A program made the position numbers and the translations under genes. Shown here one piece after another: positions 33,037 to 60,836 of a stretch of DNA of 64,000 bases. This stretch comes from Candidatus Bathyarchaeota archaeon (GTDB lineage: Archaea; Thermoproteota; Bathyarchaeia; Bathyarchaeales; Bathycorpusculaceae). The stretch lies in contig CAWGZR010000004.1 of the NCBI GenBank assembly GCA_963827165.1, positions 211,183 to 275,182 of the forward strand. The letters run 5' to 3'. The notes under the pieces are model-generated. The model made no database searches. It saw only the letters and a list, made by a program, of their open reading frames with translations, and had not been told where the DNA came from. Within the stretch, counting starts at the first letter, position 1. Every line of letters starts with the position of its first letter.

Positions 33037-33435
33037 TCAGTTAACAAATTCAACGCCTTCCAAGTCTTTGAACCATTTATCCCCTGTTAGAAATTTTATG
33101 TTAGACTTTTTTGCAAGATAATATCCCATAGCATCGGCATAAGATATGTCATGACCAATTTTCTTTAGTTTTAACCGCAGTTTCATGGCGCCTTCAATAT
33201 CCGCGATCCCAAAGTCCATTGCATATTTAGCAAATGCTTTGACCACTTCGGAGGCAGCTTGTGCGCCATGAACTTCAAGAGTGCGGTAGTATATTTCCAT
33301 TAAATTTAGCTTCGTTAGAATGCCGTCGTCTTCTTCGAAAAAAACCCTGTAGTTTGGGTTATCGCTCAGATAAGCTAGAACTGCGTAGCTGTCATAGAAG
33401 AACCGTTTAGATTTCTGCAAATCATGCCCAGCCAT
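33037..33435 (-). CDS. vapC: VapC PIN-domain toxin
   Basis: FFYDSYAVLAYL, NLMEIYY, ISYADAMGY..FLTGDKWF. Confidence 0.9.
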   Translation of the reverse strand: MAGHDLQKSKRFFYDSYAVLAYLSDNPNYRVFFEEDDGILTKLNLMEIYYRTLEVHGAQAASEVVKAFAKYAMDFGIADIEGAMKLRLKLKKIGHDISYADAMGYYLAKKSNIKFLTGDKWFKDLEGVEFVN

Positions 33436-33652
33436 GTTTCATTTCGTCTTTCTCATGCTGCAAATCCTTGAAAGGATATTTGCCTCTAAGACAACTAACG
33501 TCAGATGCTTTTCTCACCGTTACTTCCACTTCTTCGCCTTCTTTGAGCCCTTCTTTGTCCACCAGCGATTTCGGCAGCACTATGCCTAACGAATTTCCCC
33601 AACACTTAATTTTTGTCTTCACTATCATAATTAGACATGTATAACTACGCAA
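33422..33652 (-). CDS. AbrB/MazE-family antitoxin
   Basis: KIKCWGNSLGIVLPK..GLKEGEEVEV; overlaps vapC. Confidence 0.9.
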   Translation of the reverse strand: MRSYTCLIMIVKTKIKCWGNSLGIVLPKSLVDKEGLKEGEEVEVTVRKASDVSCLRGKYPFKDLQHEKDEMKHGWA

Positions 33653-33790
33653 ATTTAAGACTTTCCCAACTCTCCTTCAAATGGAGACAAGCGCTCTGGC
33701 TTGTCCCTAAATTAAACGCTCATTTTGTAAAAGGGATTTAGCGAGCATAAATTACACACATCTTAATATTTTCTAGCTGACTTATGGGGG

Positions 33791-34039
33791 TTGGTAGAAG
33801 TAAGAATGATTGGTTATTGGCAAGAAAGAATTGTAGTTGACCCAAAAGTCTTGGTTGGAAAACCAGTTATCAAAGGCACTCGGCTTTCGGTTGAGTTCAT
33901 TTTGGGTCTTCTTGCTAACGATTGGACGACCACGCAGATACTGGACGAATATCCCCAGTTGAAACGAGAAGACGTAATGGCCGTTTTGAAGTATGCCGCC
34001 GAGTTGGTCAAGGAAGAGAAGGTATATTCATTATCCTAA
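33791..34039 (+). CDS. DUF433 antitoxin
   Basis: RIVVDPKVLVGKPVIKGTRLSVEFIL..YPQLKREDV. Confidence 0.9.
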   Translation: MVEVRMIGYWQERIVVDPKVLVGKPVIKGTRLSVEFILGLLANDWTTTQILDEYPQLKREDVMAVLKYAAELVKEEKVYSLS

Positions 34040-35854: not shown

Positions 35855-36967
35855 CTAAAGGGTTTTCACTTTGCATATTTCGTATACAATCAAATGCGGA
35901 TACTTCAAGTAAAACTTGTACAAATGCGGATTTTCTTTTTTCAATTCAACACTTGGATCCGGCTCGTAAATCCTACAAATAGCCAAGTGATTCTCGCAAA
36001 GAGCGCTTGTCATTTCATCAAGAGTAAACCAATGATGCGGATTATCCTTAGCCTTATACTCTATCCTGTAATTAGGCAAACGACCATGAAAACGTCCTTC
36101 CTTTGAATGCGTTATTCCTTTGGCAAGTTGACCAAAAAACGGATGCGCCTCAATAATAAAAAATCGTCCCTGATCCGTCAGAATTCTGCTGATTTCGCTT
36201 AAGGCTTTGGAGAATTCCTGATGGTTATGTGTTTTTCTGCAATAGTCAAAACTCACAACTGTATCTATCGCCACAACATAGTCAAAGTGTTTGCAAGGCA
36301 CGTTTTTTGCGAAATCAAGAAAATCCCCCTGAAAAAATTCTTCGTTATCGAGACATAGCCTTTGTTTGAGATCGTTTGCTTTTTCAATTAGAAATGCGCT
36401 TCTATCAACACCGGTCACGTGTGCTCCCAGTTTAGCCAGAATCGTGGAATAATATCCTGGGCCACATCCAAAGTCGAAGATCCTCTTTCCAGCTATTTTT
36501 TCTTTGGTGAAAAATTGTGTTACAAAATTTTCTACGCAATATTTGTAGTAGGTTCGGCTTTCAGGTCGTATATCTGAAACGTCGTCATAAAATTTCTTTT
36601 TAAACCATTTTTCCATAATTCCCTGCGAATCATCATCTTCCTTCAAAGCTTTGGGAATTGCTGCTTTCATTGCTTTGTTAACCGCTGAAACCACCATAGC
36701 TTCGACGTTTTGCATGGATCCATTTGAAGCATCATTGCCAATGATTTTTTCGCCAAATTCTGAGTTTAGCCATTCTTTGTATTGGGGCAACGTTTTTTCT
36801 ATGACTTCATGGATTGTTGACTGCAGTCTTGCATAATCTTCTGGATCCAATTTTTCGTAAAGCTGAACTTTTTCTGAAGGTGCATTGTGGTGTTGATTTT
36901 GCTTTTCGGTTATTGCAGGCCTTTTAGGGAGGGGTTTAGTGTTTGGTTTATTTTTTGGCAAAAACAA
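35855..36967 (-). CDS. Class I SAM-dependent methyltransferase with an N-terminal precursor-like scaffold domain
   Basis: IFDFGCGPG, GVDRS, FDYVVA. Residues ~38-109 align with the leader and follower of the 38735-39160 peptide. The likely start is the TTG at 36961. Confidence 0.9.
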   Translation of the reverse strand: MFLPKNKPNTKPLPKRPAITEKQNQHHNAPSEKVQLYEKLDPEDYARLQSTIHEVIEKTLPQYKEWLNSEFGEKIIGNDASNGSMQNVEAMVVSAVNKAMKAAIPKALKEDDDSQGIMEKWFKKKFYDDVSDIRPESRTYYKYCVENFVTQFFTKEKIAGKRIFDFGCGPGYYSTILAKLGAHVTGVDRSAFLIEKANDLKQRLCLDNEEFFQGDFLDFAKNVPCKHFDYVVAIDTVVSFDYCRKTHNHQEFSKALSEISRILTDQGRFFIIEAHPFFGQLAKGITHSKEGRFHGRLPNYRIEYKAKDNPHHWFTLDEMTSALCENHLAICRIYEPDPSVELKKENPHLYKFYLKYPHLIVYEICKVKTL

Positions 36968-37026
36968 TCAACGCCCTAATATGATCTCTCAAGATAATAT
37001 TTATGGGTTTAGTGACTCCAAATTTG

Positions 37027-38613
37027 TCAATAATATGGAACGATTATTTTTATAGGATAATTTCTTTTCGAGCTTGCCGTTTTTCCCATGCTTAATCGGT
37101 TCCACTCCGAACGGAGATTTTCAAATCGGTTGCTATCGGGCAGAGGTGAATAAAAATAACTATAATTATTTCCGGTTTTTTCTTTGCTCAGCTCAATTCC
37201 ATATTCTTGCGGGTTATTGGAAATTTCTGAATCAGGCAAAACCCCAAAACGTGAAATGCTGACTTGATCAATAAATTCTTGGTTTTGCTCCAAGAAACCA
37301 ACGGATTGTTCGAAATCTCTCTGAGTTTCTCCTGGAAAATCTACTATCATGAATGTCAAAACGCGAATGCCATTTTTTGCGGTATCGCGGATCACGTTTT
37401 TAGCCGTTTCTATGTCGTACCCTTTTTTCATTTTACGAAGAATTCTCTGCGACCCAGATTCTATGCCAAACCACAAGCCTATGCAACCCGCCTGCCGCAT
37501 TTTCCCAAGCAACTTGTCATTCATTTCAGAACGAACTCTAGCCATGCCCATCCACTTCATTTCGACGTCTTCTTCAATCAATAAATCACAGAGTTTCTCC
37601 AACGATTTGATATTGCAATTAATCAAACTGTCATTGAAGCGAATAGTAGAAACCCCATATTTTTCTTTGACATATTTGAATTCCGAAACTACGTTTTCCG
37701 GTGACCGCATCCGATACGTATTACCCCATAAACGTTTTTCAACACAAAAAACACAATCACCAATACAACCTCTAGATCCGACAACCGGCATTATAGGCAC
37801 CCCAAACTTATTCTGAGGATACTCCCACAACGGCAAATCATCGTAATCCGGAAAAGGCAAATCGTCAAGAGATTTAATTAAAGGTCGATCCGCGTTAGAA
37901 ATAATTTTGCCGTTCTCTCTGTAGGAAATTCCTGCGATTCCCCTTAATGATTCTAAACTTCCGTTATAGGAAATAGCTACTTCAGAGATTGTCGATTCGC
38001 CCTCCCCTCGAACTATTAAGTCAATTTCGGGGTGGATTGACAGAACTTCTTCCCATGAGGCGAATGCTGGACCGCCCAAAACAGTTAAAATTCTCGGTTG
38101 AATTTTCTTTAATTTGCGTGAGAGAAGTACACTCCAGAGCAAACCAGTGTGGGTTATTACATGAAATCCCACAATACTTTGACTTTTGGTATCGGCGGCA
38201 ACCTCTAAAAACCAATCATTACAAATTTTCCAAACATCTAACAATGTTGCCTGTTTTGATTCTTCGCTGATAATACCTTTGAACACCGAATTTGAATGGG
38301 GATAACCTAATTTATCAGAAGCCTCTCTTAGCATAATTTCTTCGAAAAGTTTTTGGCCATCTTGAATTGTTGAATAAATTTCTGCCTCGGGAACCTTTGT
38401 CCATTTCGCCTTTCCCTTGTTATCGCTTTCTCTTAAGATTTTTGCAGGGTTGATTTCGAGTCCTTGATGGAAAAGAGTCAAGTTAAAAGATTTAATGTTT
38501 AGATCAAAGGTGCTTACCTTTTGTTTGCTTGCCTTTAAGGTGCTTGTCAAGTATGGAATTGCAGGATAAGGAACCAAGGATGAAACTGGCGGGATGCAAA
38601 GAAAAACAGGCAA
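37027..38613 (-). CDS. B12-binding radical SAM protein (class B methylase-like)
   Basis: Cobalamin-binding domain (IVGF..LGGP..IDLIVRGEGE), LDDLPFPDY, SRGCIGDCVFC, GIESGSQRIL, FPGET. Confidence 0.93.
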   Translation of the reverse strand: MPVFLCIPPVSSLVPYPAIPYLTSTLKASKQKVSTFDLNIKSFNLTLFHQGLEINPAKILRESDNKGKAKWTKVPEAEIYSTIQDGQKLFEEIMLREASDKLGYPHSNSVFKGIISEESKQATLLDVWKICNDWFLEVAADTKSQSIVGFHVITHTGLLWSVLLSRKLKKIQPRILTVLGGPAFASWEEVLSIHPEIDLIVRGEGESTISEVAISYNGSLESLRGIAGISYRENGKIISNADRPLIKSLDDLPFPDYDDLPLWEYPQNKFGVPIMPVVGSRGCIGDCVFCVEKRLWGNTYRMRSPENVVSEFKYVKEKYGVSTIRFNDSLINCNIKSLEKLCDLLIEEDVEMKWMGMARVRSEMNDKLLGKMRQAGCIGLWFGIESGSQRILRKMKKGYDIETAKNVIRDTAKNGIRVLTFMIVDFPGETQRDFEQSVGFLEQNQEFIDQVSISRFGVLPDSEISNNPQEYGIELSKEKTGNNYSYFYSPLPDSNRFENLRSEWNRLSMGKTASSKRNYPIKIIVPYY

Positions 38614-38734
38614 AATTTAGATCATCGTTGACAGTTTATGGAAATTGGTGTTTATGGTTGATTCCATCTTTTGTGGCGTGAATTGACGAACTATTCTTCA
38701 TTTGAGAGCGTTGGTTTCTGAACCGCACTGCTTC

Positions 38735-39160
38735 TTATTCGAATTGATCTTTCAAAGCTTGACGAATTGCGCCTATCATTGCCTCGTTAACAGCATTAAC
38801 AACCATATCGTCCATTTTTCTATTTGGCGTAGGGCAATCGTTACCGCATGAACTGCACAAAGGTGTCGGACAGTCGTTTCCACATGAACTACAAAGCGGC
38901 GTCGGACAATCGTTGCCACATGAACTGCACAAAGGTGTCGGGCAATCATCAGCCGCAATCAAAGAAGTAGCTACCCACTGCTGATATTCCGGTAGAGTTT
39001 TTGCAATGGTATCTCGAATTGTTGACTGAAGTTTTGCATACATCTTAGGATCCAGTTTTTCAACAGGCGGCATTTTTGCTAAGAGTTTGTTTAACCGTAT
39101 CTTTTGTGCTGGGGTCAGTTTTTTTGAGGAAGCGTTAGATGTAGATTTATTTTTTGACAA
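38735..39160 (-). CDS. Putative RiPP precursor with an internal Cys-rich repeated core
   Basis: 141 aa: helical leader, (DCPTPLCSSCGN)x3-DCPTP, helical follower; lies between two radical SAM genes. Confidence 0.85.
   Translation of the reverse strand: MSKNKSTSNASSKKLTPAQKIRLNKLLAKMPPVEKLDPKMYAKLQSTIRDTIAKTLPEYQQWVATSLIAADDCPTPLCSSCGNDCPTPLCSSCGNDCPTPLCSSCGNDCPTPNRKMDDMVVNAVNEAMIGAIRQALKDQFE
38825..38947 (-). repeat. 36-nt coding tandem repeat, 3.4 copies
   Basis: GATTGCCCGACACCTTTGTGCAGTTCATGTGGCAAC / GATTGTCCGACGCCGCTTTGTAGTTCATGTGGAAAC / GACTGTCCGACACCTTTGTGCAGTTCATGCGGTAAC / GATTGCCCTACGCCA. Confidence 0.95.
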
Positions 39161-39195
39161 AAATATCCCTACAATGATGTATTGAGTCGTTTTAT

Positions 39196-40650
39196 TTAAT
39201 GTTTGTTGTGAAGCAAATCCTGAGCAGGATTATTTGGTAGAATTTTTTGAGTTCTGGTTTTTTGAGATTCCATCAGGAAATTGTATGAAATTAGGAGCTT
39301 TAGTATTTCATTTTGAAAAGTGCAGAAGTAGTCCTCTTTAATGCCAAGTTGCCCAGTCTTAACATAAATATCGTATGCGCATCCCCCGCCGCAAATTCCA
39401 ACCGCAGCACACCTCATACAGTCTTTATTCTTAAGCGTGCCCATTTCCAGCCACGTATAAAACAACGGTTCATCCTGAACCTTCAAATCATCTTTAATTG
39501 GAATCTGATACTTTCCCGACGGATAAAACGCATGGCACGGCCCCACTGTCCCAGTTGGCGAAAAAAACAGCAGTTGACCAAACGCCGGGCAATCGTAAAT
39601 ATGGAATATTTCTTTGAAAAAATAATTGGCCCGCCGATTATCAATACGGTCTTCAAACATTTTTAGTTCTTTTGCTTTTAAGTAGGCTCCAAAAAGATGA
39701 TGGGCAAGTTGTTTGGGGTCTGGAACCTCAAATTCACTTGGCTCTTTAAGCCGGGTCAACAAGTTAAAGCCTATGGTTCTGACGCCTAATTTCTGGATAA
39801 ATTCTATTATTTCTTCTGCATGCATATAGTTCTGCTTCGTGATTGTACATGATATTCCCGTGTTTACACCCGCCTCTTTTAGAAGCGCCAACGCTTTGAG
39901 TGCTGCGTAAAAGGTTTCTTTTCCATCCGTGAAAACACGGTTTTTGTCAATGGCAGCCCACCCATCAAGCGACAACCCCACGGTAACATCATGCTGCTTA
40001 AGTTTCTTAGCCATAGCTTCAGTTATTAGGCTTCCATTTGTGACACAAGAAAAAAAGAATTTTCCCTTAGAAGCCGCCTCAAGCTTCTCAATAATATAAA
40101 ACACAATTTCACTATTACTAAACGGCTCACCCCCATAAAATGTGACCCTGTATTCAGGAACTTGCTTTGCCTCGTTAACTATAACATTTATGACTTTATC
40201 AGCCAAATCCTTAGACATCACTGTACTTGGACCTTTGAGAGAGTTCTCTATAAAACAGTAACCGCACCTAAAATTGCAGAAATCGGTAACCAAAATGTAG
40301 GCAAGGTTGGTTTGTGGTTTTTTTCTAAGCAAGCTAGCCGCAACAGTTTCAAAAACTTTTTCCCCATTAAAGCCTTGAGGCACCAAAAATTTTAGTTCCA
40401 TTAACTCCTTAACGTCCTTGCTATGCGCGCCCTTACTCAGATCTGCCAAAACCTTTTCGTATTTTTTGTTGGTTAAGTACACTTTCTTTAGAGTTAAAGA
40501 ATTGAAAAGACACTTCGTCGATTCATCAACATTGAACAAGTGGACAAACGGCGAAAGAACCAATTGAGCAAGCTCTTCGCGGGGCATTTGCACAGAAGGC
40601 TGGTTCTTATTCACAATCGCATTAACCGCCTCAGATCGTTTCTTGCTCAT
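39196..40650 (-). CDS. Radical SAM/SPASM peptide maturase-like enzyme
   Basis: CNFRCGYC, FYGGEP, VTNGSL, GLSLDG; SPASM CPAFG..GPCH..CMRCAAVGICGGGC..YFC; ~110-aa N-terminal extension resembling an RRE. Confidence 0.92.
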   Translation of the reverse strand: MSKKRSEAVNAIVNKNQPSVQMPREELAQLVLSPFVHLFNVDESTKCLFNSLTLKKVYLTNKKYEKVLADLSKGAHSKDVKELMELKFLVPQGFNGEKVFETVAASLLRKKPQTNLAYILVTDFCNFRCGYCFIENSLKGPSTVMSKDLADKVINVIVNEAKQVPEYRVTFYGGEPFSNSEIVFYIIEKLEAASKGKFFFSCVTNGSLITEAMAKKLKQHDVTVGLSLDGWAAIDKNRVFTDGKETFYAALKALALLKEAGVNTGISCTITKQNYMHAEEIIEFIQKLGVRTIGFNLLTRLKEPSEFEVPDPKQLAHHLFGAYLKAKELKMFEDRIDNRRANYFFKEIFHIYDCPAFGQLLFFSPTGTVGPCHAFYPSGKYQIPIKDDLKVQDEPLFYTWLEMGTLKNKDCMRCAAVGICGGGCAYDIYVKTGQLGIKEDYFCTFQNEILKLLISYNFLMESQKTRTQKILPNNPAQDLLHNKH

Positions 40651-40785
40651 TTACCCACCTAAAAAGAAAACCATCTCAATGTCCCTAAACTAACAAATTA
40701 TTAAAATCTTTCCTAAAAACTCCAACCTAATCTCGTGTATGTTCGAAAGCGCAAAGCAAAAAGCTGTTATACTGCAACAATTTAA

Positions 40786-41698: not shown

Positions 41699-42460
41699 TC
41701 AATCGCCGACGCGTCTTGGCTTACTAGCTCGTTTTATGAGAACAATTCCGGAGTCAACTAGCCTCTGTCTTGCTTCGACGTTTACGTCTCTTAGGCAACT
41801 CAATGGATACAGCTTGTTTTCCAAAATAGCGTCTCTTAATCCGAAATGTTCAGGTGAAGTCCAACCAATCTGAATAAGATTTTTACATTTGCCATATTGC
41901 ATTGCATGCTCCGAGTACCGGGTGTTAGTAACAATAACTGCACGGTCAATTCTCAAATCCGTTAACCCCGCCGCGAAGGCATCCGACACATCTTCTAATA
42001 CTGCCCAAGCTATTCGACTCTCATCCAACCCCGTGAGCGCATGATAGCTGAAATGATGCTTAACCTCAACAAAATAAGTAACCCCCTCTTTGCGTACAAT
42101 GCCATCAACCTCATGTTCCCCACATTTACCCCTAAGAACCCGATTAGGCGTAACCTCAAAACCAGTATGCGCCAACAAAACCTGAATAAACAATTCAAAC
42201 TCCGGCTTAGGCTCCATCAAACTTATGCCCTGCTTCAAATCGTAAAGGTGACCAATACCAGGCCTGAACTCCTGCATAAACGAGAAAATAAGCTGAAGAA
42301 TCAACTGAGTAGTAATACCCTCATAAAGTCTTTTTTCAATTCGATCAGCAACTTCATTCGCAGTGTTGCTATCCGCACCCATCCTCAAGCACGTCTGCAC
42401 AATTTTTTCTCTACTAAAGGACTGTTTAGAACCGTCTGCTTTGGTTACCCGAAACGCCAC
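41699..42460 (-). CDS. ATP-cone domain plus Mrr-like restriction endonuclease (C-terminus probably frameshifted)
   Basis: VTKADGSKQSFSREKI (ATP cone); FELFI..GFEV..EHEVDGI..FVEVKHH..IVTNT. Confidence 0.85.
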   Translation of the reverse strand: MAFRVTKADGSKQSFSREKIVQTCLRMGADSNTANEVADRIEKRLYEGITTQLILQLIFSFMQEFRPGIGHLYDLKQGISLMEPKPEFELFIQVLLAHTGFEVTPNRVLRGKCGEHEVDGIVRKEGVTYFVEVKHHFSYHALTGLDESRIAWAVLEDVSDAFAAGLTDLRIDRAVIVTNTRYSEHAMQYGKCKNLIQIGWTSPEHFGLRDAILENKLYPLSCLRDVNVEARQRLVDSGIVLIKRASKPRRVGD

Positions 42461-42831: not shown

Positions 42832-43572
42832 ATGGTAAATTTGGAGGAGAAAAAAATGAACGATATACTTAGTATTTTTATTGAGGGTGGAACCTTCAGG
42901 ATGTTTGTCTCAGCGATTCAAGCAACAGAGATAGTTGATACTCTTAGAAGTGTTGGGCCGTTCACTGTTTTTGCACCCGACGAGGAAGCGTTTGAAAAAA
43001 TTCCCAAAGGTGAATTAGACAGTTTTCTTAAGGACACGCCAAAGTTAAAGGCAATTCTAATGTATCACATTGTCGCCGGAAAATATACAATTAATGAAAT
43101 CAGCAAAATGAAGACCCTCAAAACAATTCAAGGCCAAGAAGTCAAAATCGACGCACACAAATGGCACCTTCACGTGAACCCAAAAATCAACGACGCACTC
43201 ATCACAAATTACAACCTCGAAGCAGACAACGGCATAATACATGTAATAGACAAAGTGCTTATGCCAAATATGGAGCTAACTTGCCCCGTCTGCGGAATGG
43301 GCTTCATGACCATGGAAGATTTAACTGCTCACACTAAAATGGGCCATGTTGCTGAGAAAGCCATAGAGCCAATGCCGCCCGCTGAAACTATGCCTGCCGG
43401 CGAATTAACCAATGAATCAATGTCTGGCATGTCATCTCAAGAAACACCAATGAAGGGTTTAGAACCTGATCGGGTCAAATGTCCTGATTGTGGAAAAACC
43501 TTCATGAGTCATTCGGAGATGGCACGTCACAGAGATTCAATGCACCATGAAACAAAAGGACACGACGAATGA
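42832..43572 (+). CDS. Fasciclin (FAS1) domain protein with two C2H2-type zinc fingers
   Basis: GPFTVFAPDEEAF, ILMYHIV, ADNGIIHVIDKVLMP; CPVC..HTKMGH and CPDC..HRDSMH. Confidence 0.88.
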   Translation: MVNLEEKKMNDILSIFIEGGTFRMFVSAIQATEIVDTLRSVGPFTVFAPDEEAFEKIPKGELDSFLKDTPKLKAILMYHIVAGKYTINEISKMKTLKTIQGQEVKIDAHKWHLHVNPKINDALITNYNLEADNGIIHVIDKVLMPNMELTCPVCGMGFMTMEDLTAHTKMGHVAEKAIEPMPPAETMPAGELTNESMSGMSSQETPMKGLEPDRVKCPDCGKTFMSHSEMARHRDSMHHETKGHDE

Positions 43573-51715: not shown

Positions 51716-53461
51716 TTAACCATAATTTTCGAGTGCCACTTTCGTTCCGTCTTTTAACATCACAATTTCAGGAACGATTATTCGTTTTAAATCTATGCTA
51801 AGGAGTTCTTGCAGTAGCCACCTATGATTCTTATTCAATAGCCCAAGATTTTCTATTCGTCGCCATTTTTCTAAAATTTCTTGTTTTAATTGTTCTGTAA
51901 ACTTGTAGAAGTCATAAGGTACTTTTTGGTAGATCAACGAATGAACCATATTTAGTTCTGATGGTGCTAAGAGTTCTATGTAATTCTGATTAATGGCAAC
52001 ATCGTAGTTGTTTAACGAGTGCAAAAGATCATATGAAGTAAAGGTCCAGTCTTCACCACGTTGGTATCTTATTTTAGCCGATACAGATTGCCCTCTTAAA
52101 AGGGATAGCCCTGCTTTGTAGTCTTCTAAAAAGGTCATTAGCGAATCCAACTCTTTATTACTCGTAATTCCACAAGCACTCAATTTTCCTTTTGCACTAT
52201 CTATTTCTTTGAGGAAGGCATAGTATTTCTTCCAATTAATTGCGAAAAAAATTTGGTTGAGGAAATCAAAATGTTTCCTATAGGTGCCAAGTACTAAATT
52301 TGCTCTGAATTCTAACAGAAACCTGAGCGTTCTTTCAGATAATTTTCTTTCTAAGAAATAATCTCTGATTGTTTCAATGAATTCGAGATAGCCTATTTGC
52401 TGATCAAGATTAAAGACTCTTTTAACAAAGATGAATGCGGTACCTTCCTTCTGTCTTGATACTCGACCAAATCTTTGGATGAAGCTCTGTAAATCTGGAG
52501 CAATATCCATTATTATTACATCCAGAGGATAATTAATACCGATTTCACTTTTTGATGTAGAAATTATTACAAGCCTTGTCAGGTCCGCCTTTATTGTTCC
52601 TCTTGTTTCATCCCCAGTATCCTTTGTTATAAATTCACCATACCCTTCAGACACAAGTGAGTTATATAATTCCCGAGCAAATTTATTTGAATTACAGATA
52701 ACCAGTGTTTTTAATTTTTTTTCTATACACGATTTTATTATGATATTCACATTTGCTTTAAATTTTTCATTTGTAACGCATATTTTCGTATCGTATCTAA
52801 CAATCGCACCTTTCTCAATACCTCTTTCCTCCATAATTTTTATTTTGCAAGTAGGCGCCATATCTTGCAAAACACTGATAAACTCAAAAGAAGGTGTAGC
52901 AGACGAAAGGATGACTTTTGCTTTAGAAGAACCCAAAAATAATGCAAGCTGTAAAAGTAAATCAGAAAGTTCCAGTTCCCGGTATATGTGAAATTCATCG
53001 TAAATAATATAATGAAAGTAACTAAAAATTCTCAACAAATCTTCTTCTGGATTAACATAAACATGGTGAAGTACTGCTGAAAGAATGTCTGGATTTGTGA
53101 TTATTACATCATATCGTTGGAAAAAAGCCATCAATTCTCTTGATCTTGAATACCCGCGAATATCACCTAAGCTACTTGAGTCCAGAATAAATGAATTTAC
53201 TCCATGACATTTAAGTTGCCGTTCTTGGTCTGCCATTAGTGCAGTAGTTGGATAGACAAGAAGAACTGGAGGATTTTTCTTGCAGAGGTATTCAAAGCAT
53301 AGAGTTTTTCCCGCTCCAGTTGGAGCTGATAAGAAGATTACATCAGACTTCTCGATATTTTCGATGAAATCTCGCTGGAATTTTCTTATTTTTTGAAAAG
53401 GTAATTCATTGAAAGGATTATCAACTTCGAGCACAGAAAAACCGTTCACTTTTGTCCCCAT
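51716..53461 (-). CDS. cas3: Cas3' helicase (type I-D, no HD domain)
   Basis: APTGAGKT, YPTTAL, ITNPD, YDEFH, SSATP, QRFGRVSR. Confidence 0.9.
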   Translation of the reverse strand: MGTKVNGFSVLEVDNPFNELPFQKIRKFQRDFIENIEKSDVIFLSAPTGAGKTLCFEYLCKKNPPVLLVYPTTALMADQERQLKCHGVNSFILDSSSLGDIRGYSRSRELMAFFQRYDVIITNPDILSAVLHHVYVNPEEDLLRIFSYFHYIIYDEFHIYRELELSDLLLQLALFLGSSKAKVILSSATPSFEFISVLQDMAPTCKIKIMEERGIEKGAIVRYDTKICVTNEKFKANVNIIIKSCIEKKLKTLVICNSNKFARELYNSLVSEGYGEFITKDTGDETRGTIKADLTRLVIISTSKSEIGINYPLDVIIMDIAPDLQSFIQRFGRVSRQKEGTAFIFVKRVFNLDQQIGYLEFIETIRDYFLERKLSERTLRFLLEFRANLVLGTYRKHFDFLNQIFFAINWKKYYAFLKEIDSAKGKLSACGITSNKELDSLMTFLEDYKAGLSLLRGQSVSAKIRYQRGEDWTFTSYDLLHSLNNYDVAINQNYIELLAPSELNMVHSLIYQKVPYDFYKFTEQLKQEILEKWRRIENLGLLNKNHRWLLQELLSIDLKRIIVPEIVMLKDGTKVALENYG

Positions 53462-54141
53462 TTTTTCACTACCAAGGGAAGGATCTCTTTTTCGAAGTAT
53501 TTTAAAGGCACACCATGTATGAAAAAGAGACGATAATCGCCCGATCTCTTTATTGTGGTACCATGTACGAGTAGTTTTTCTCGTGGTATCTTGTAAATCG
53601 TGTCCAACATAAAGTAATTCAGGGTTACATATTCTGGTGGCTTAGTTTTCCTTAATCTGCCCTCGCCATTTTTTCTTATTCCTATATTTACGAGTATTTC
53701 ATCGTCCAGTTTTTCTTCAGAAACAAGCACGCATTGAAACTTGGAACCTATTTCTATACCAACATATTGCCGCACTTGTTTGAAAAATGGGGATTTTGAT
53801 GCAGTCATCAATATTGATGGATACGGGTTCTTTTGAGCGTTTATTTGAATATTTTCTTCTGCCCACAACATGGCACTCCTAAACTCTATCGAGGTATATC
53901 GTAGATTAGTTGCAATAGCATCTGTGGCGAAAATAGGCACTTCCGATAATTCTTGATATTTTGGTGTAGTTGTATCAGCCCCATAGAGAAAGTACTCTTT
54001 GTCTCGTAATCTAAGAGCGTCAGCCAATGCATAAGTCAATGCAGTAGAAGAAATTATTCCCTCTGCACTAATGGTGTTTCCTTCAAATGAAGAAAAGAAA
54101 ACTGGAGAAAAGATTTCTAATTCATATCCTTGAAATAACAT
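53446..54141 (-). CDS. cas5: Cas5d/Csc1
   Basis: PVFFSSFEG..ISSTALTYAL, IGIRKNG; located between cas7 and cas3. Confidence 0.75.
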   Translation of the reverse strand: MLFQGYELEIFSPVFFSSFEGNTISAEGIISSTALTYALADALRLRDKEYFLYGADTTTPKYQELSEVPIFATDAIATNLRYTSIEFRSAMLWAEENIQINAQKNPYPSILMTASKSPFFKQVRQYVGIEIGSKFQCVLVSEEKLDDEILVNIGIRKNGEGRLRKTKPPEYVTLNYFMLDTIYKIPREKLLVHGTTIKRSGDYRLFFIHGVPLKYFEKEILPLVVKKWGQK

Positions 54142-54150
54142 TAATCTCGC

Positions 54151-55251
54151 CTAAGAACCGCCTGGTCGGTTTTGCTCTATAGGCGGAACATAGGCGCTTT
54201 TGCCTTGTTTGGTTAACTCAACCAAACATTCCTTTAGGACTTTCTTGTCATTCTCATTTGTCAAAAGGGCCACATCAATTACAGGTGACATAAGGTTTTT
54301 GAATTCATCCTCTTTTTCGTCCCACATAATTTTCCAAAAAATATTCTTATGGTTATTAACATAAATTTTTACTGCGTTGAGTACTTCCTCACCTGTATAT
54401 TCACTCTGGATTTTAGAGCTAAAATGTTCCTTTATCAATTCACCGCTTGATAAACCAATAGCTGTTTTTGAAAATATTATGCCCAGGACCCTATTTCGAA
54501 TAAGGCCCTTCCTAGTGCTTCTGGCAAAATAGGTCGTAGTATTCAAGATGTTATGAAGAACGTAAAGAAGCATCTCCTTGGTTGGAGCGTCTATTCTCAC
54601 AAAGTGAATCATTTTTGCGGGAGGTTCAATATTTACATGCGTGTACAACCCACGCCCTCTTTCTTCTTCATTCGCATTTTCCGCGCCTACTTTCATCATT
54701 GTTCCAGTTTCATACATTGCATTATGCTGTTCCTTGTTAAGCAAATTGTATGGCTCTAGCGTGTACGTGTACCCTTCAATAACACGAGACTTTATAGCGA
54801 ACGTCTCGTCCTCGGTACCTACTGCGCCATAGGTTACAGTGTCTGGATTAATGGCCGCTTGAAGACCCCCAAAAATTTCATTATAACTATAACTGGATGA
54901 TATTATGTCCCAGTTGTTGTTATTGTCTTGCTTTTGATTCAGTATCCTGCACATTCTCAGCCCAGTTAGTCTTTCGGCAGAAACGAATTTTTCCCCATTT
55001 ATTCTTGCTCTAATAATTTCATTCCAACTATCTTTTCCTTCATTATCTTTGGTGTTGATCCTTGTAACAAATAGTTCAGCTCTTTCTGGGTCAGAGCTTC
55101 TAGCTAAGACCGGATCAACGACTTCTCTTAAAACGATTAAGCACAGCTCGGGCCTTAGCTTTCTGCTCCTGTCAATTTTAGCTGCAAAGTACTCACTTGG
55201 CAATTTTTTCTCAAGTTCTTTCCACGAATCTAATGTTTTTACTTCAACCAT
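54151..55251 (-). CDS. cas7: Cas7d/Csc2
   Basis: LIVLREV, KFVSAERLTG, NPDTVTYGA, KSRV, HNA, ARSTRKG. Confidence 0.85.
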   Translation of the reverse strand: MVEVKTLDSWKELEKKLPSEYFAAKIDRSRKLRPELCLIVLREVVDPVLARSSDPERAELFVTRINTKDNEGKDSWNEIIRARINGEKFVSAERLTGLRMCRILNQKQDNNNNWDIISSSYSYNEIFGGLQAAINPDTVTYGAVGTEDETFAIKSRVIEGYTYTLEPYNLLNKEQHNAMYETGTMMKVGAENANEEERGRGLYTHVNIEPPAKMIHFVRIDAPTKEMLLYVLHNILNTTTYFARSTRKGLIRNRVLGIIFSKTAIGLSSGELIKEHFSSKIQSEYTGEEVLNAVKIYVNNHKNIFWKIMWDEKEDEFKNLMSPVIDVALLTNENDKKVLKECLVELTKQGKSAYVPPIEQNRPGGS

Positions 55252-55258
55252 GTTTGAT

Positions 55259-57751: not shown

Positions 57752-57905
57752 AGTTAATTTCGCAGCCCTGATAGCACCCAGTTACATCAATTCTCTAATA
57801 ATTAATATAATTAACTGGTTTCTATAAACATGTTATCGTTATCAGGACGTTTTTTGGTTTCTTCTCTTTGGATTTTTCCTGTTTGTACCTTTTGGAAAAA
57901 AGAAA

Positions 57906-58568
57906 CTATTGGCATATTTGTTTGTGTCCGCATCCGCCTGTGCATTTGTATTTTGCCACTCGGATAGGCAGCAATTCTTCATCTTGAATAATCCGTCTGA
58001 TGTGCCCTAAAACACGTTTAACGAAAATCTTCATGGTGGGCGTAATCTCAAACTGTAAAATCAGCCCTTCCAAAATGTAATCCACAAAAGCCCGTTTAAC
58101 AATAATATTAAAGTTATCTTCAATAAGCAGAGCGTAGCCAACCAGCTGATATTTATGTTGCATGCATACTCTGCCCTTGTCAGAATTCATGTTCTTGTAC
58201 TCAACTGGAATGTATTCGTTGCTGGCAGTTTTAATTATACAATCCACGTTCCCCTGCAAACCATATGTGCTCGAACAAAGTGAGGTGAACATGATTTTTT
58301 CTGCTCCAACAAACTCAGGCGAATAATAGATGGCGTCCTTTCTTCTCAACTCTTTCCCCACATAATCCTCATGCAGCTCCTTGCTATCTCCCTGCTGCGA
58401 ACCAAAAATCGGCTTTGCACGCAAAACCCTATCAAAATAAACTATGCGCGGACAGTAAATATACTGCTTGATATCCGTAACTGAAATAAAATCTTCTGCG
58501 ACATCAGAAACAAGCGGTCTCTGCTGGCTTTTTAACCATCGATCCTTTTTCGATTCTTTAAGCTTCAT
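57906..58568 (-). CDS. cas4: Cas4 exonuclease
   Basis: DIKQYIYCPR, GNVDC..PVEYK, QLVGYALL, CTGGCGHKQIC. Confidence 0.95.
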   Translation of the reverse strand: MKLKESKKDRWLKSQQRPLVSDVAEDFISVTDIKQYIYCPRIVYFDRVLRAKPIFGSQQGDSKELHEDYVGKELRRKDAIYYSPEFVGAEKIMFTSLCSSTYGLQGNVDCIIKTASNEYIPVEYKNMNSDKGRVCMQHKYQLVGYALLIEDNFNIIVKRAFVDYILEGLILQFEITPTMKIFVKRVLGHIRRIIQDEELLPIRVAKYKCTGGCGHKQICQ

Positions 58569-58584
58569 GGCATGACCTCAGACA

Positions 58585-58875
58585 TTAGAAATATGCGATT
58601 TTGTCGTTCCCTTCCTTATACTCATACTTCTTGGGCTTACCCACTTCCTTCTTCCCCTTCAAGCAACTATCACACATAGGGAAAAGCTGCACGTTCTCAA
58701 CCAAATCTTTAATCAAATTCTTCAAATCCACAAGCAAACTATTCAATTCATCTCGCCGAAGGTCGCCCATGAAGCCGCTGTACTGAATTCGCTGTAGCCC
58801 ATAATCCTTAAGCGTCTCAGCAACCAGCGTTCGCAGATTATCGTCGGAAACATCATAAATCACAACATAACGCAT
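58585..58875 (-). CDS. cas2: Cas2
   Basis: MRYVVIYDVSDDNLR..LKDYGLQRIQYSGF. Confidence 0.96.
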   Translation of the reverse strand: MRYVVIYDVSDDNLRTLVAETLKDYGLQRIQYSGFMGDLRRDELNSLLVDLKNLIKDLVENVQLFPMCDSCLKGKKEVGKPKKYEYKEGNDKIAYF

Positions 58876-58881
58876 TTTGGC

Positions 58882-59939: not shown

Positions 59940-60836
59940 AGCAGACGTTGTAGTATTGGCAGTACTCTTTGCACTGGGAACTCTCAGGCTTGCCAGGGTC
60001 TTTCCTCTCAGCTACAATTTCCAGTTTCTTGTCTCGTTCCTCTATCCACCACTGTCTCAATTCATCATTGGCAAAAAAAGGTCCTTCTGAACACTGATCT
60101 TACCGTTCTCAACGTTCAAGTAAACAGTACAACAAATATCCACAGGCACTTCATGGATGCTCTCAAAAACAAGCGCATAACCAACAGAGTAAAGTCTATG
60201 CCAATCTTCTTTTAAACCGGTAACTTTTAGGTCAAACATGATGGTTCTAAGATAATCAAAACAATCCACACTAAGAATGTCGCTTAAGCCAAGCAGTTCA
60301 CCAGAGAGTTTGTGCTCAACCAAAAAAGGAACTGTTGTGCCTAGCAAATCCATCTCTGACGCATACGGCTGGCTGCAAGAAAGTTCTGCCAACTGGGCAT
60401 CACACATTTTATGCATGAAATCCCAAACCTGCCTGCACTTATCAATAACGTTCTCAGGCTTTTCGCCAATTTCCTGCCACCTAACCTTCTGCCACCATGC
60501 ATCAAAAGTTAGGTTTTGCCTTTGCCGAAAACTCTGCAAGCAATCGCTAATAATGCCATGAAATAATTTGCCCAAAGCCATCCGCGAGCTCGGAGCCGCA
60601 TACTTCTTTTCAATATTCCGCAGATACACATCCCGGTTACTCGGGCAATATTTGGAGCTAACTTGATACATTGGTAACTTGACGTTGTCAAAATACGGTT
60701 TTAAGGGCGGTTGATGCCAATTCCAACCTCTAAGCTCTTTACTTACACCAACTTCTCTCGCGGTCGGCAAAAGCTGGTAGAGGAGTCGCTTCTGCTCCAT
60801 GTCCGATAGAAAATACAACCTCTGGTCAACCATCAA
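59932..60836 (-). CDS. csa1: Cas4-like Csa1 (type I-A associated), frameshifted near 60075
   Basis: VSKELRGWNWHQPPL, KYCPSNRDVYLR, EHKLSGELLGLS, DLK, GYALVFES; the shifted frame continues DELRQWWIEERD..DPG..CKEYCQYYNVC. Confidence 0.88.

What the first reader, a model, noticed from the sequence alone, without database searches (positions are those of the whole stretch)
35855..40650. Candidate undescribed archaeal RiPP cluster: rSAM/SPASM, repeat-core precursor, B12-rSAM and scaffold-fused methyltransferase
Seen: four closely spaced co-directional genes encode a radical SAM/SPASM enzyme, a 141-aa peptide with a Cys-rich repeated centre, a cobalamin-binding radical SAM enzyme and a class I methyltransferase. 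Known: rSAM/SPASM enzymes beside Cys-rich peptides make sactionine or ranthionine thioethers (AlbA, CteB, PapB), and B12-rSAM enzymes C-methylate RiPPs (PoyC, TsrM). Inferred: the product is a thioether-crosslinked, methylated peptide. The precursor architecture matches no RiPP family I recognise, and few archaeal rSAM RiPPs are characterised.
Basis: partly seen in the sequence, partly recalled or inferred. Interest (0 to 1): 0.95.

Follow-up and report, generated by a model that had tools for sequence, protein, structure and literature searches.

The report
Bathyarchaeal radical-SAM peptide-modification gene cluster
A four-gene set found only in some members of one genus of soil and peat archaea appears to build a small protein with cysteine-rich repeats that is cross-linked and methylated by three enzymes, one of which carries a copy of its own substrate's handle; the family is undescribed, but it is a variant of a known kind of system.

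Summary
Window 35855-40650 (minus strand) holds four co-directional genes:
- a radical SAM enzyme with a seven-Cys SPASM-type C-terminus;
- a 141-aa protein whose disordered centre carries three identical 12-residue Cys repeats;
- a B12-type radical SAM enzyme;
- a class I methyltransferase whose first ~110 residues are a core-less copy of the small protein's helical flanks (BLASTP E = 6e-15).

The set is a conserved unit. All three enzymes lie next to a precursor homolog in 21 of 30 related loci. Precursor and rSAM ortholog occur in exactly the same 22 of 120 genomes of one Bathyarchaeia genus. The precursor was found in 0 of 360 other genomes sampled from the class. Flanking genes are not conserved, and no protease or transporter travels with the set.

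No Pfam or NCBIfam model hits the precursor. Every curated maturase model scores far below its cut-off (best: FibroRumin 184.7 bits against 400). No paper in the searched library describes the family.

Best reading: a RiPP-like pathway that installs non-alpha thioether rings at C-x-N-[D/Q] motifs and then methylates the product. The chemistry is inferred, not shown. The closest precedent is the Crp system of Methanococcus voltae (2026).

Verdict: a real, new variant of a known kind, of moderate to good interest (0.55), not the 0.95 first proposed.

The parts
39196..40650 (-). Radical SAM enzyme with a SPASM-type C-terminus (484 aa); proposed thioether-forming maturase. It has an N-terminal ~118-aa extension (possible recognition domain), a CX3CX2C motif at C125/C129/C132, and seven auxiliary-cluster Cys at 354, 372, 411, 414, 420, 424 and 443.
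   Evidence: Pfam Radical_SAM 79.2 bits and Fer4_12 36.9 bits. NCBIfam best hits are FibroRumin 184.7 bits (cut-off 400; aligned residues 33-454) and PapB 144.1 bits (cut-off 340). Best solved structure is CteB, 5wgg, E = 3.7e-23. All ten Cys are conserved in 49 of 49 orthologs.
38735..39160 (-). 141-aa precursor or substrate protein. It has a basic N-terminus, helices at about 17-29 and 38-70, a disordered Cys-repeat core at 69-113, and a C-terminal helix at 114-139.
   Evidence: No Pfam or NCBIfam hit. 163 homologs at E <= 0.01. Alignment A1. AF2 mean pLDDT is 57.5, with the core below 50.
38828..38947 (-). Core: three units of DCPTPLCSSCGN plus a terminal DCPTP (residues 72-111). The family consensus is [D/Q]-C-P-[T/V]-[E/P/Q]-[L/V/I]-C-S-[S/A]-C-[G/S/D]-N-[D/Q].
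   Evidence: TRF finds period 36 and 3.1 copies. All 4-8 nt differences between units are synonymous. The logo comes from 258 units in 120 proteins.
37027..38613 (-). B12-binding-domain radical SAM enzyme (528 aa), a class B type; proposed C-methyltransferase.
   Evidence: Pfam Radical_SAM 68.4 bits; B12-binding 30.7 bits (cut-off 32.1; E = 3.2e-7). NCBIfam ApyD 164.8 bits (cut-off 750) and RiPP C-methyltransferase TIGR03975 155.9 bits (cut-off 281.85). PDB hits include CysS and TokK.
35855..36622 (-). Class I SAM-dependent methyltransferase domain (residues ~116-370) of the 370-aa protein.
   Evidence: Methyltransf_31 70 bits, Methyltransf_11 50 bits. The AF2 model shows a Rossmann-type core with pLDDT 85-95 over residues 150-230. 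Foldseek gives only generic class I MT hits such as TleD, MitM and RebM.
36623..36967 (-). N-terminal ~115 residues of the methyltransferase: a core-less copy of the precursor scaffold. It has two helices (42-71 and 84-109) joined by a Cys-free loop, GNDASNGS.
   Evidence: BLASTP against the precursor gives E = 6e-15. The precursor profile hits it at E = 1.7e-15 in the own genome. Its representative P0133 scores E = 2.4e-14 in a library of 1.84 billion proteins. It is present in 18 of 18 aligned MT orthologs.
40651..40785 (-). Intergenic region upstream of the first gene, shared with a divergent metallophosphoesterase gene. An A/T-rich stretch and a GGTGG lie just before the ATG; this may be the promoter and ribosome-binding region.
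   Evidence: Read by eye from the sequence. Not tested.

Best explanation
This is a RiPP-like post-translational modification cluster found in only some genomes (22 of 120 searched) of a single genus of Bathyarchaeia.

The 141-aa protein is the substrate. Two conserved helical flanks (a leader and a follower, together the 'scaffold') hold a disordered loop of one to five 12-residue repeats, each with three invariant Cys, one invariant Pro and a near-invariant Asn.

Proposed steps, all inferred:
1. The rSAM/SPASM enzyme abstracts a hydrogen from a side-chain carbon and closes small intramolecular thioether (ranthionine-type) rings. The most likely site is the third Cys of each unit joined to the Asp/Gln three residues later (C-x-N-[D/Q]).
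2. The B12-type rSAM adds methyl groups to unactivated carbons of the core.
3. The class I methyltransferase adds a further methyl to a heteroatom. Its N-terminal copy of the scaffold finds the substrate, either by pairing with the substrate's helices or by using the same docking site on the rSAM enzymes as the substrate does.

Extra precursor genes elsewhere in the genome are served in trans. No dedicated protease or exporter exists, so the end product may be a modified small protein rather than a cleaved peptide.

Shown here: gene content, homology, co-occurrence, repeat conservation, disorder of the core. Inferred: every chemical step, the acceptor residues and the docking role.
For: Conserved unit:
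- In 30 related loci from 21 assemblies, an rSAM ortholog lies directly upstream of a precursor in 24.
- The B12-rSAM is present in 21 loci, the MT in 23, and all three enzymes in 21. Eight loci carry a second precursor between the B12-rSAM and the MT.
- The five loci without an intact neighbouring rSAM (L015, L025, L026, L028, L029) all come from assemblies that hold a full cluster elsewhere (L005, L023, L014, L016).
- At genome level, precursor and rSAM ortholog are found in the same 22 of 120 genomes of the genus. The precursor was found in 0 of 360 genomes outside the genus in a class-wide sample.

Enzyme type:
- The best NCBIfam hits are all peptide or protein maturases (FibroRumin, PapB, CefB, nif11, QhpD, SCIFF).
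- The best solved structure is the ranthisynthase CteB.
- The CX3CX2C motif and seven SPASM Cys are conserved in 49 of 49 orthologs.
- At the six 'catalytic site proximity' positions of PMC10288494 (passages read), this enzyme has F, Y, V, S, H, A. CteB has F, F, T, S, H, Q (3 identical). The sactisynthase StsB has Y, T, I, S, K, L (1 identical).

Substrate-like core:
- It is disordered in AF2 (pLDDT below 50 over residues 69-113).
- Unit number varies: 1 unit in 20 proteins, 2 in 65, 3 in 33, 4 in 1 and 5 in 1, out of 120.
- C0, P1, C5 and C8 are invariant in 258 of 258 units, N10 in 249 of 258, and D/Q/E at position 11 in 257 of 258.
- Within the window, unit differences are synonymous only.
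- C-x-x-D/Q is the motif that the Crp paper reports as modified (CAVD, PCAGD) and calls suggestive of rSAM thioether formation (PMC13692751, sections 8 and 12 read).

Shared scaffold. MT N-domains and precursors separate on one branch of a tree (support 90/98; 41 rows), so the fusion is old and maintained.
Against: - No chemistry has been measured, and no RNA or protein evidence exists.
- All curated maturase models score far below their cut-offs, so function cannot be transferred from them.
- Pfam finds neither a SPASM nor a PqqD/RRE domain.
- C-x4-C-x2-C-x3-C-P resembles the end of a ferredoxin-type cluster motif (my recall), so metal or Fe-S binding is not excluded.
- No protease or transporter is conserved, which is unusual for a secreted RiPP.
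- At 141 aa the substrate is long for a RiPP precursor.
- Two clusters lack the B12-rSAM (L006, L031), so methylation is not obligatory there. L006 shares a contig with a complete cluster (L010).
- Several loci have split ORFs (for example L004, L030). These may be assembly errors or decay.
- Genome counts are from related genomes and are not independent.
Confidence: 0.6

Rival explanations
1. Same substrate, different radical chemistry. The rSAM/SPASM enzyme modifies the repeat protein without making thioethers. Possibilities are alpha-carbon (sactionine) links, C-C or C-O cross-links, epimerisation, or oxidation of Cys or Ser.
For: rSAM/SPASM enzymes close in sequence perform varied reactions, and the hit list also contains cyclophane-forming enzymes, the anaerobic sulfatase maturase and QhpD at similar scores. 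According to PMC10288494 (passages), sequence similarity is a poor guide among these enzymes. I compared the six-position profile only with CteB and StsB.
Against: Three invariant Cys per unit and a conserved C-x-N-[D/Q] motif point to Cys as the reacting group. The best structural and profile matches are ranthisynthase-type enzymes, CteB and PapB. The proximity positions are nearer CteB than the one sactisynthase compared.
Confidence: 0.17
2. The 141-aa protein is not a substrate. It is a metal- or Fe-S-binding partner, such as an electron carrier, sulfur or metal donor, or assembly scaffold, for enzymes that act on another molecule.
For: The spacing C-x4-C-x2-C-x3-C-P recalls ferredoxin-type cluster motifs (my recall). 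No protease or exporter is present. The Crp authors also raise metal binding as the possible role of their protein (PMC13692751, section 14). The best methyltransferase hit, BchM/ChlM, and a B12-rSAM hit, BchE, are small-molecule enzymes, although all of these scores are far below cut-off.
Against: - Unit number varies from 1 to 5, and Cys count is 3n+1, which does not fit 4-Cys sites.
- The core is predicted disordered.
- The best matches of the rSAM are peptide maturases with an N-terminal extension.
- Core-less scaffold copies exist, both on the MT and free (P0129). This fits a recognition handle better than a metal site.
Confidence: 0.1
3. It is simply a member of an already described family: Crp/TIGR04463, FibroRumin, SCIFF/CteB, PapB/freyrasin, or Cys-every-fifth.
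For: All of these models hit the rSAM with E <= 1e-25. The repeat motif C-x-x-D/Q is shared with Crp.
Against: - Scores against cut-offs: FibroRumin 184.7 against 400, PapB 144.1 against 340, CefB 115.7 against 600, SCIFF maturase 100.8 against 425, TIGR04463 91 against 525.
- The precursor hits no NCBIfam or Pfam model.
- A profile search of 1.84 billion representatives finds only 19 clusters, 2 of them unrelated repeat proteins.
- rSAM orthologs form a tight group at 67% identity or more, then drop to 50% or less.
Confidence: 0.03

Closest known systems
Crp system of Methanococcus voltae (CrpA/CrpB/CrpC; rSAM family TIGR04463). Source: PMC13692751; abstract and sections 8, 12, 13 and 14 read.
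   Same: - Archaeal.
- An rSAM/SPASM enzyme with a predicted RRE sits beside a protein with repeated Cys motifs that include C-x-x-D/Q.
- Ranthionine-type links were shown there.
- The product is discussed as a modified protein, not an excised peptide.
- A second protein in the cluster (CrpB) shares the substrate's N-terminal region, just as the MT here shares the scaffold.
- No protease or exporter was identified.
   Different: - The rSAM here scores only 91 bits on TIGR04463 (cut-off 525).
- The core here lies in the middle, between two conserved helices, not at the C-terminus.
- Units are 12 residues repeated 1-5 times, against 17 residues repeated 10 times.
- A B12-rSAM and a methyltransferase are part of the unit here.
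- The shared region here is fused to an enzyme.
- The host is Bathyarchaeia, not a methanogen.
Ranthipeptide maturases: CteB (SCIFF/thermocellin; PDB 5WGG/5WHY) and PapB (freyrasin; NF047865).
   Same: CteB is the best solved-structure match (E = 3.7e-23), and PapB is the second-best NCBIfam hit. Both share the CX3CX2C motif and the seven-Cys SPASM layout. Three of the six catalytic proximity residues are identical to CteB. That freyrasin has repeated Cys...Asp motifs is my recall.
   Different: - Scores are below the family cut-offs (144.1 against 340; 100.8 against 425).
- The precursor is unrelated in sequence, three times longer, and has a follower helix.
- The extra methylating enzymes are not part of those systems (recall).
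FibroRumin system radical SAM maturase (TIGR04136).
   Same: It is the best-scoring curated model. It aligns from residue 33 to 454, so it includes the N-terminal extension.
   Different: The score is 184.7 bits against a cut-off of 400. The precursor does not hit any FibroRumin-type model. As far as I recall, that system is itself uncharacterised.
QhpD/QhpC: thioether cross-linking of the small subunit of quinohemoprotein amine dehydrogenase.
   Same: An rSAM/SPASM enzyme makes Cys-to-Asp/Glu thioethers in a small protein that stays a protein (recall; also cited as an analogy in PMC13692751, section 14). The TIGR03906 model aligns over residues 30-447.
   Different: The score is 109 bits against a cut-off of 453. 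There are no dehydrogenase subunits nearby, and the architecture here is repeat-based.
Proteusin/polytheonamide-type pathways (B12-rSAM C-methyltransferases PoyB/PoyC plus a class I N-methyltransferase, PoyE). Recalled from memory, not from any call.
   Same: The combination of a B12-rSAM methylase and a SAM-dependent methyltransferase acts on a long precursor with a large structured leader. The RiPP C-methyltransferase model TIGR03975 is among the top hits.
   Different: The TIGR03975 score is 155.9 against a cut-off of 281.85. There is no nitrile-hydratase-like leader and no epimerase, and a thioether-type rSAM/SPASM enzyme is the lead enzyme here.
Borosins (methyltransferase fused to its own precursor). 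Recalled; 10.1101/2021.12.24.474128 was seen only as a search listing.
   Same: A methyltransferase and precursor-derived sequence lie in one polypeptide.
   Different: Here the fused part has lost the core (no Cys in the window's copy) and lies N-terminal, and a separate precursor gene carries the core. The fused part therefore looks like a handle, not a substrate.

Membership tests
Radical SAM / SPASM superfamily | A CX3CX2C motif that binds the SAM cluster. | tested here: met
   C125, C129 and C132 are conserved in 49 of 49 orthologs. Pfam Radical_SAM scores 79.2 bits against a cut-off of 29.5.
Radical SAM / SPASM superfamily | A C-terminal seven-Cys SPASM domain for two auxiliary clusters. 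| tested here: met
   Cys 354, 372, 411, 414, 420, 424 and 443 are conserved in 49 of 49 orthologs. They align with the SPASM Cys stretches of CteB within the printed alignment, which ends at residue 429, so Cys443 is not covered. However, the Pfam SPASM HMM gives no hit even at E <= 10 on the C-terminal 184 aa.
Ranthipeptide maturase, PapB family (NF047865) | A score at or above the curated equivalog cut-off of 340 bits. | tested here: not met
   144.1 bits.
SCIFF system (TIGR03974 maturase plus SCIFF precursor) | Maturase score of at least 425 bits and a precursor that matches the SCIFF model. | tested here: not met
   The maturase scores 100.8 bits. The precursor has 0 NCBIfam hits at E <= 0.01.
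FibroRumin system (TIGR04136) | Maturase score of at least 400 bits. | tested here: not met
   184.7 bits. This is the best hit of all models, but it is under half the cut-off.
Crp system (TIGR04463) | Maturase score of at least 525 bits. | tested here: not met
   91 bits.
Crp system (TIGR04463) | A neighbouring protein with repeated Cys motifs that contain C-x-x-D/Q. | tested here: met
   C8-x-N-[D/Q/E] occurs in 257 of 258 units. The motif is as described in PMC13692751, section 8.
Class B (cobalamin-dependent) radical SAM methylases | An N-terminal B12-binding domain followed by a radical SAM core. | tested here: inconclusive
   Radical_SAM scores 68.4 bits. B12-binding scores 30.7 bits, just under the 32.1 cut-off (E = 3.2e-7). 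Long alignments cover the B12-domain region and the radical SAM core with ApyD, TIGR03975, HpnJ and BchE, all below their cut-offs. Cobalamin binding itself cannot be tested here.
RiPP maturation radical SAM C-methyltransferase (TIGR03975) | A score of at least 281.85 bits. | tested here: not met
   155.9 bits.
Class I SAM-dependent methyltransferases | A Rossmann-type SAM-binding fold with glycine-rich motif I. | tested here: met
   Methyltransf_31 scores 70 bits against a cut-off of 27. The motif D-[FL]-G-[CS]-G-P-G is conserved (its D, G, G-P-G positions invariant) in 18 of 18 orthologs. Foldseek probability is 1.00 to class I MTs.
RiPP (ribosomally synthesised, post-translationally modified peptide) pathway | A precursor gene next to its modifying enzymes, with a conserved recognition region and a variable core. 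| tested here: met
   Adjacency holds in 24 of 30 loci. The flanks are conserved, while core unit number and sequence vary.
RiPP (ribosomally synthesised, post-translationally modified peptide) pathway | A RiPP recognition element (PqqD-like) in the lead enzyme. | tested here: inconclusive
   Pfam finds no PqqD-like hit in residues 1-123 at E <= 10. The N-terminal extension does align with that of the FibroRumin, CefB and QhpD models.
RiPP (ribosomally synthesised, post-translationally modified peptide) pathway | Leader removal and export: a dedicated protease or transporter. | tested here: not met
   No gene family other than the four core genes recurs in the 7-kb flanks of the 30 loci. The only recurrent 'families' are antisense shadow ORFs and PIN-domain genes, the latter in 4 loci. 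The window's neighbours are unrelated to these functions.

The most novel reading that the evidence does not exclude
The methyltransferase finds its substrate by mimicry. Its N-terminal helix-loop-helix is an old, core-less duplicate of the substrate's own scaffold, and it pairs with the substrate's helices (or takes the substrate's docking site on the rSAM enzymes). A natural enzyme would thus carry a copy of its substrate's leader and follower as a targeting domain. The end product would be a cross-linked, methylated small protein that stays intact in the cell, not a secreted peptide. This would be a second, independent archaeal case of RiPP-type chemistry used on proteins.

Support for pairing is weak only. 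Complex prediction of MT residues 1-115 with the precursor scored 0.51 against a best control of 0.01 (3 controls). That mark was reached by 58 of 80 solved complexes and 2 of 110 mismatched pairs. But scores of 0.60 or under were seen in only 7 of those 80 solved complexes and in both mismatches that passed. The runs agree in at least 81% of contacts, and partner pLDDT is at least 59. My own alignments were used, so the counts hold only roughly.
Probability: 0.3. Interest if true: 0.75.

Novelty: new variant of a known kind. Interest (0 to 1): 0.55.

Why it matters
Radical-SAM-modified peptides of archaea are almost unexplored. One survey preprint reports that attempts to activate archaeal rSAM clusters failed (10.1101/2024.10.07.616454, section 5). 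The one characterised archaeal case that my searches found, Crp, dates from 2026.

This cluster offers a compact four-gene system from uncultured Bathyarchaeia. Three features make it a clean target for heterologous reconstitution:
- The substrate is easy to recognise.
- The core sits between two helices rather than at one end.
- The cluster combines three enzyme types: a thioether-type rSAM, a B12-rSAM and a SAM methyltransferase.

The scaffold copy on the methyltransferase could show a natural way of directing a tailoring enzyme to its substrate, which is useful for RiPP engineering. The cluster's presence in only 22 of 120 genomes of one genus, with no fixed neighbours, suggests an accessory trait, perhaps competitive or protective, in peat and soil archaea. 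Its biological role is unknown.

Tried and rejected
- Expression: the look-up of sequencing runs listed 13 DNA holders from 7 studies and no RNA holder.
rSAM with precursor, and the precursor homodimer, could not be tried.
- The protein-atlas search on the precursor gave no usable hit.
- The search for homologous proteins with lengths 'longer' gave none at E <= 0.001. By the tool's own note this is weak evidence. It even missed the known MT fusions, which other searches do find.
- A Pfam scan of the rSAM N-terminus for an RRE and of the C-terminus for SPASM at E <= 10 returned only a chance Med12 hit.
- PADLOC gave only superfamily-level hits (pVip to the rSAM core, mad2 to the MT domain, PDC-M51A to the B12-rSAM). 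I reject a known defence system.
- Foldseek of the MT model returned only generic class I methyltransferases, with no clue to the methyl acceptor.
- AF2 models are of modest confidence (57.5 and 64.1 mean pLDDT), so I drew no tertiary-packing conclusions from them.
- Literature:
  - 'Bathyarchaeota' + 'RiPP' + 'radical SAM' gave 0 papers.
  - Three core-motif strings gave 0 papers.
  - Broader searches gave Crp, the proximity-profiling paper and surveys.
  - The cold-seep paper mentions ranthipeptides and Bathyarchaeota only separately.
Three could list these genes:
  - Supplemental Data set 1 and Figure S3 of PMC13692751;
  - the ~15,000-enzyme dataset of PMC10288494;
  - Supplementary Data 1 of 10.1101/2024.10.07.616454.
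- Crp screen: it required at least 10% Cys for proteins of 100 aa or more. The window's protein has 10 Cys in 141 aa (7.1%), so I infer that the screen would have missed it.
- Phage or plasmid origin: I considered it and did not pursue it. The collections were not searched, and nothing in the four genes suggests it.
- Split ORFs in several related loci (for example L004, L010, L030) were not resolved as errors or decay.

Full report
**What is there.** On the minus strand of window 35855-40650 lie four co-directional ORFs separated by 35, 121 and 59 nt.
- 39196-40650 (484 aa) hits Pfam Radical_SAM. It aligns almost end to end with NCBIfam peptide- and protein-maturase models. The best are FibroRumin (184.7 bits), PapB (144.1), CefB (115.7), nif11 maturase (112.2), QhpD (109) and SCIFF maturase (100.8). 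All are well under their curated cut-offs of 340-600 bits.
- 38735-39160 (141 aa) hits nothing in Pfam or NCBIfam.
- 37027-38613 (528 aa) has a Radical_SAM domain and a B12-binding domain. The latter scores 30.7 bits, just under Pfam's 32.1, with E = 3.2e-7. Its best NCBIfam hits are class B methylase-type families (ApyD, RiPP C-methyltransferase TIGR03975, HpnJ, BchE), none reaching cut-off.
- 35855-36967 (370 aa) has a class I methyltransferase domain at about residues 146-315.

The window comes from a 3.13-Mb, 14-contig genome. Its relatives are labelled Candidatus Bathyarchaeota MAGs.

**The small protein.** Its centre holds three identical DCPTPLCSSCGN units and a terminal DCPTP. At DNA level the units differ at 4-8 of 36 positions, and every difference is synonymous. 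Selection therefore keeps the peptide; this is not a fresh duplication.

A word-indexed search found 163 homologs at E <= 0.01 among 304 candidates. In the 120 listed, 258 units give this consensus:
- [D/Q]-C-P-[T/V]-[E/P/Q]-[L/V/I]-C-S-[S/A]-C-[G/S/D]-N-[D/Q].
- C0, P1, C5 and C8 are invariant.
- Asn10 is present in 249 of 258 units, and D/Q/E at position 11 in 257 of 258.
- Spacing is 12 residues in 133 of 138 unit pairs.
- Unit counts per protein are 1 (20 proteins), 2 (65), 3 (33), 4 (1) and 5 (1). Some proteins come from short contigs and may be partial.

The regions on both sides of the core are conserved (alignment A1). AF2 with this alignment gives helices at 17-29, 38-70 and 114-139, with pLDDT of about 70-78 over the N-terminal helices and about 54-67 over the C-terminal one. 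The core, residues 69-113, scores below 50; mean pLDDT is 57.5.

An exhaustive HMMER profile search of 1.84 billion representatives found only 19 clusters at E <= 0.001. Two of these (P0137, P0138) are unrelated repeat proteins on inspection. Variants include other Cys-rich cores (P0124, P0128) and a free, nearly core-less scaffold (P0129).

**The methyltransferase carries the scaffold.** The precursor aligns with MT residues 30-110 at BLASTP E = 6e-15. The Cys core is replaced by a short Cys-free loop. Further evidence:
- The precursor profile finds this N-domain in the own genome at E = 1.7e-15.
- Its representative P0133 scores E = 2.4e-14 in the 1.84-billion-protein library.
- All 18 aligned MT orthologs have the domain, and several keep a single Cys in the loop.
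- AF2 models it as two helices (42-71, 84-109) ahead of the Rossmann core.
- In a tree of 23 precursors and 18 MT N-domains, the two groups separate on one branch (support 90/98; 90% of bootstrap trees). One old duplication is therefore not ruled out, and recent copying from the neighbouring precursor is unlikely. I used all rows of A1 and A2 and dropped none.

**Is the set a unit?** The search for related loci returned 30 loci from 21 assemblies. Twenty are labelled Candidatus Bathyarchaeota and one is a 10-kb contig labelled Sulfotelmatobacter. tblastn and ORF mapping give these counts:
- An rSAM ortholog lies directly upstream of a precursor in 24 of 30 loci. One more locus (L032) has it 2.4 kb away.
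- The B12-rSAM is present in 21 of 30, the MT in 23, and all three enzymes in 21.
- Eight loci carry a second precursor between the B12-rSAM and the MT.
- L006 and L031 lack the B12-rSAM. L006 shares a contig with the complete cluster L010.
- Five loci have a precursor without an intact rSAM: L015, L025, L026, L028 and L029. Each comes from an assembly that also holds a full cluster. Their neighbours are unrelated genes.

No other gene family recurs in the 7-kb flanks, and none of the window's neighbours does. The only recurrent 'families' are antisense shadow ORFs of the core genes and PIN-domain genes in 4 loci. So there is no conserved protease, transporter or immunity gene.

Across genomes:
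- The precursor profile matches 4 of 401 genomes sampled from the class, all in the window's genus. That is 0 of 360 outside it.
- Within the genus it matches 22 of 120 genomes, or 10 of 73 high-quality ones.
- The rSAM ortholog (E <= 1e-60) is found in exactly the same 22 genomes.

These genomes are kin, so the counts are not independent events. The presence/absence match is nonetheless complete.

**What the lead enzyme looks like.** CX3CX2C (C125/129/132) and seven C-terminal Cys are kept in 49 of 49 orthologs. Within the printed alignment, which ends at residue 429, these Cys align with the SPASM Cys stretches of CteB, the best solved-structure match (5wgg, E = 3.7e-23).

[quoted passage not shown] For the sactisynthase StsB they are Y113, T147, I174, S199, K338 and L339.
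- I mapped these through the HMMER alignment. The PDB chain is offset by +3, which I worked out from the printed alignment.
- This enzyme has F133, Y172, V203, S227, H373 and A374.
- That is three identities with CteB and one with StsB.
- Within the family, four positions are invariant, V203 varies among V/L/I, and H373 among H/Q.

This is a partial test against two references only. Pfam detects neither a SPASM nor a PqqD-type RRE. The ~118-residue N-terminal extension does align with the equivalent part of the FibroRumin, CefB and QhpD models.

rSAM orthologs form a tight group at 67% identity or more, apart from fragments. Similarity then drops to 43-50%, and some of those more distant proteins are fused to GNAT acetyltransferase domains.

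**Most likely mechanism.** The nearest documented system is Crp of Methanococcus voltae (PMC13692751; abstract and sections 8, 12, 13, 14 read). In that system:
- an rSAM/SPASM enzyme with a predicted RRE installs ranthionine-type thioethers in a repeat-rich Cys protein;
- the modified motifs include CAVD, PCAGD and CPLVL;
- the authors call C-x-x-Q/D suggestive of rSAM thioether formation;
- a second protein, CrpB, shares the substrate's first 47 residues and improves processing.

By analogy I propose three steps here.
1. The rSAM/SPASM enzyme closes small thioether rings in each unit. The most likely link is from the third Cys to the D/Q three residues on (C-x-N-[D/Q]). The first Cys (C-P-x-x-[L/V/I]) is a second candidate.
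2. The B12-rSAM methylates unactivated carbons.
3. The class I MT methylates a heteroatom. The near-invariant Asn, a free Cys or Asp are candidates; nothing here discriminates among them.

The conserved flanks would be the recognition handle. The MT, which has no other recognisable peptide-binding domain, would use its own copy of the handle.

One complex prediction of MT residues 1-115 with the precursor gave 'weak support':
- The score was 0.51 against a best control of 0.01 (three controls).
- That mark was reached by 58 of 80 solved complexes and 2 of 110 mismatches.
- Scores of 0.60 or under were seen in only 7 of those 80 solved complexes and in both passing mismatches.
- The runs agree in at least 81% of contacts, and partner pLDDT is at least 59.
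- My own alignments were used, so the counts hold only roughly.

I treat this as a lead, not as evidence of binding. Because no protease or exporter travels with the genes, the product may remain an intact modified protein, as discussed for CrpA.

**Rivals.**
- Another radical reaction on the same substrate (0.17).
- A metal- or Fe-S-binding partner protein (0.10). The spacing C-x4-C-x2-C-x3-C-P recalls ferredoxin motifs, which is my recall. Against this stand the 3n+1 Cys count, the variable unit number, the predicted disorder and the core-less scaffold copies.
- Plain membership of a described family (0.03). This fails on every curated cut-off and on the absence of any precursor model hit.

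**Novelty and score.** No paper in the searched library holds Bathyarchaeota together with RiPP and radical SAM or holds the core motifs. Surveys count archaeal rSAM RiPP clusters without describing them, and one reports failed attempts to activate them. Supplements that could list these genes were closed.

The system is a new precursor family and a new arrangement: a central core between two helices, and a handle copied onto a tailoring enzyme. It sits within a known kind, rSAM/SPASM thioether-type RiPP-like pathways, so I rate it a new variant of a known kind. It is a good reconstitution target, but not the near-unique find that 0.95 implied. My interest score is 0.55.

**Limits.**
- No chemistry, expression or binding was measured.
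- No RNA run holds the locus.
- AF2 confidence is modest.
- Start codons are mechanical calls.
- Several related loci have split ORFs that I did not resolve.

Noticed in passing
window 51716-62465: A CRISPR-Cas locus lies here. The minus-strand genes include a DEAD/Cas3-like helicase (51716-53461), a Csc2-family protein (54151-55251) and an 830-aa protein without a Pfam hit (55259-57751). An array of 21 repeats of about 37 nt, spaced 69-79 nt apart, follows at 60955-62465. Csc2 suggests a type I-D-like system; that assignment is my recall and was not tested.
   Followed up: partly
window 33037-34039: Small toxin-antitoxin-like genes lie just downstream of the cluster: a PIN-domain protein (33037-33435, minus strand) overlapped by a 76-aa ORF (33422-33652, minus strand), and a DUF433 protein (33791-34039, plus strand). 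PIN-domain genes also recur near the cluster in 4 of 30 related loci.
   Followed up: partly
P0193, P0195, P0225 (proteins): The nearest relatives of the rSAM outside the tight ortholog group (36-48% identity) include 584-595-aa forms fused to GNAT acetyltransferase domains (PF00583, PF13302). This may be a sister system with a different tailoring step. Their contigs are only 2.7-4.4 kb, and their neighbourhoods were not examined.
   Followed up: no
L027:917-4423: On the 10-kb contig labelled Sulfotelmatobacter, a second and distant rSAM/SPASM gene (1344-2732; 25% identity; Pfam SPASM hit) lies directly upstream of the ortholog, preceded by a 116-aa ORF with no Pfam hit. An alpha-amylase gene follows the precursor. 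The bacterial label may reflect mis-binning of an archaeal contig; this was not tested.
   Followed up: partly
window 12429-15799: A metallophosphoesterase (428 aa) is followed by an SMC_N/AAA ATPase (695 aa) with overlapping stop and start. This looks like an Mre11/Rad50-type pair; that naming is my recall.
   Followed up: no
window 41699-42460 (minus strand) and 42832-43572 (plus strand): There are two unusual domain combinations next to the cluster: an ATP-cone fused to an Mrr-type restriction endonuclease domain, and a fasciclin domain fused to C2H2 zinc fingers. Neither is conserved beside the cluster in relatives.
   Followed up: no
window 39161-39232: The precursor's reading frame stays open for 23 codons upstream of the TTG start (open frame of 164 aa). 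Relatives begin M-F-L-S-K-N-K, whereas the window reads I-F-L at that place (ATA TTT TTG). The window's copy therefore probably starts two codons later than its relatives. Some other homologs also begin MSKNK.
   Followed up: partly
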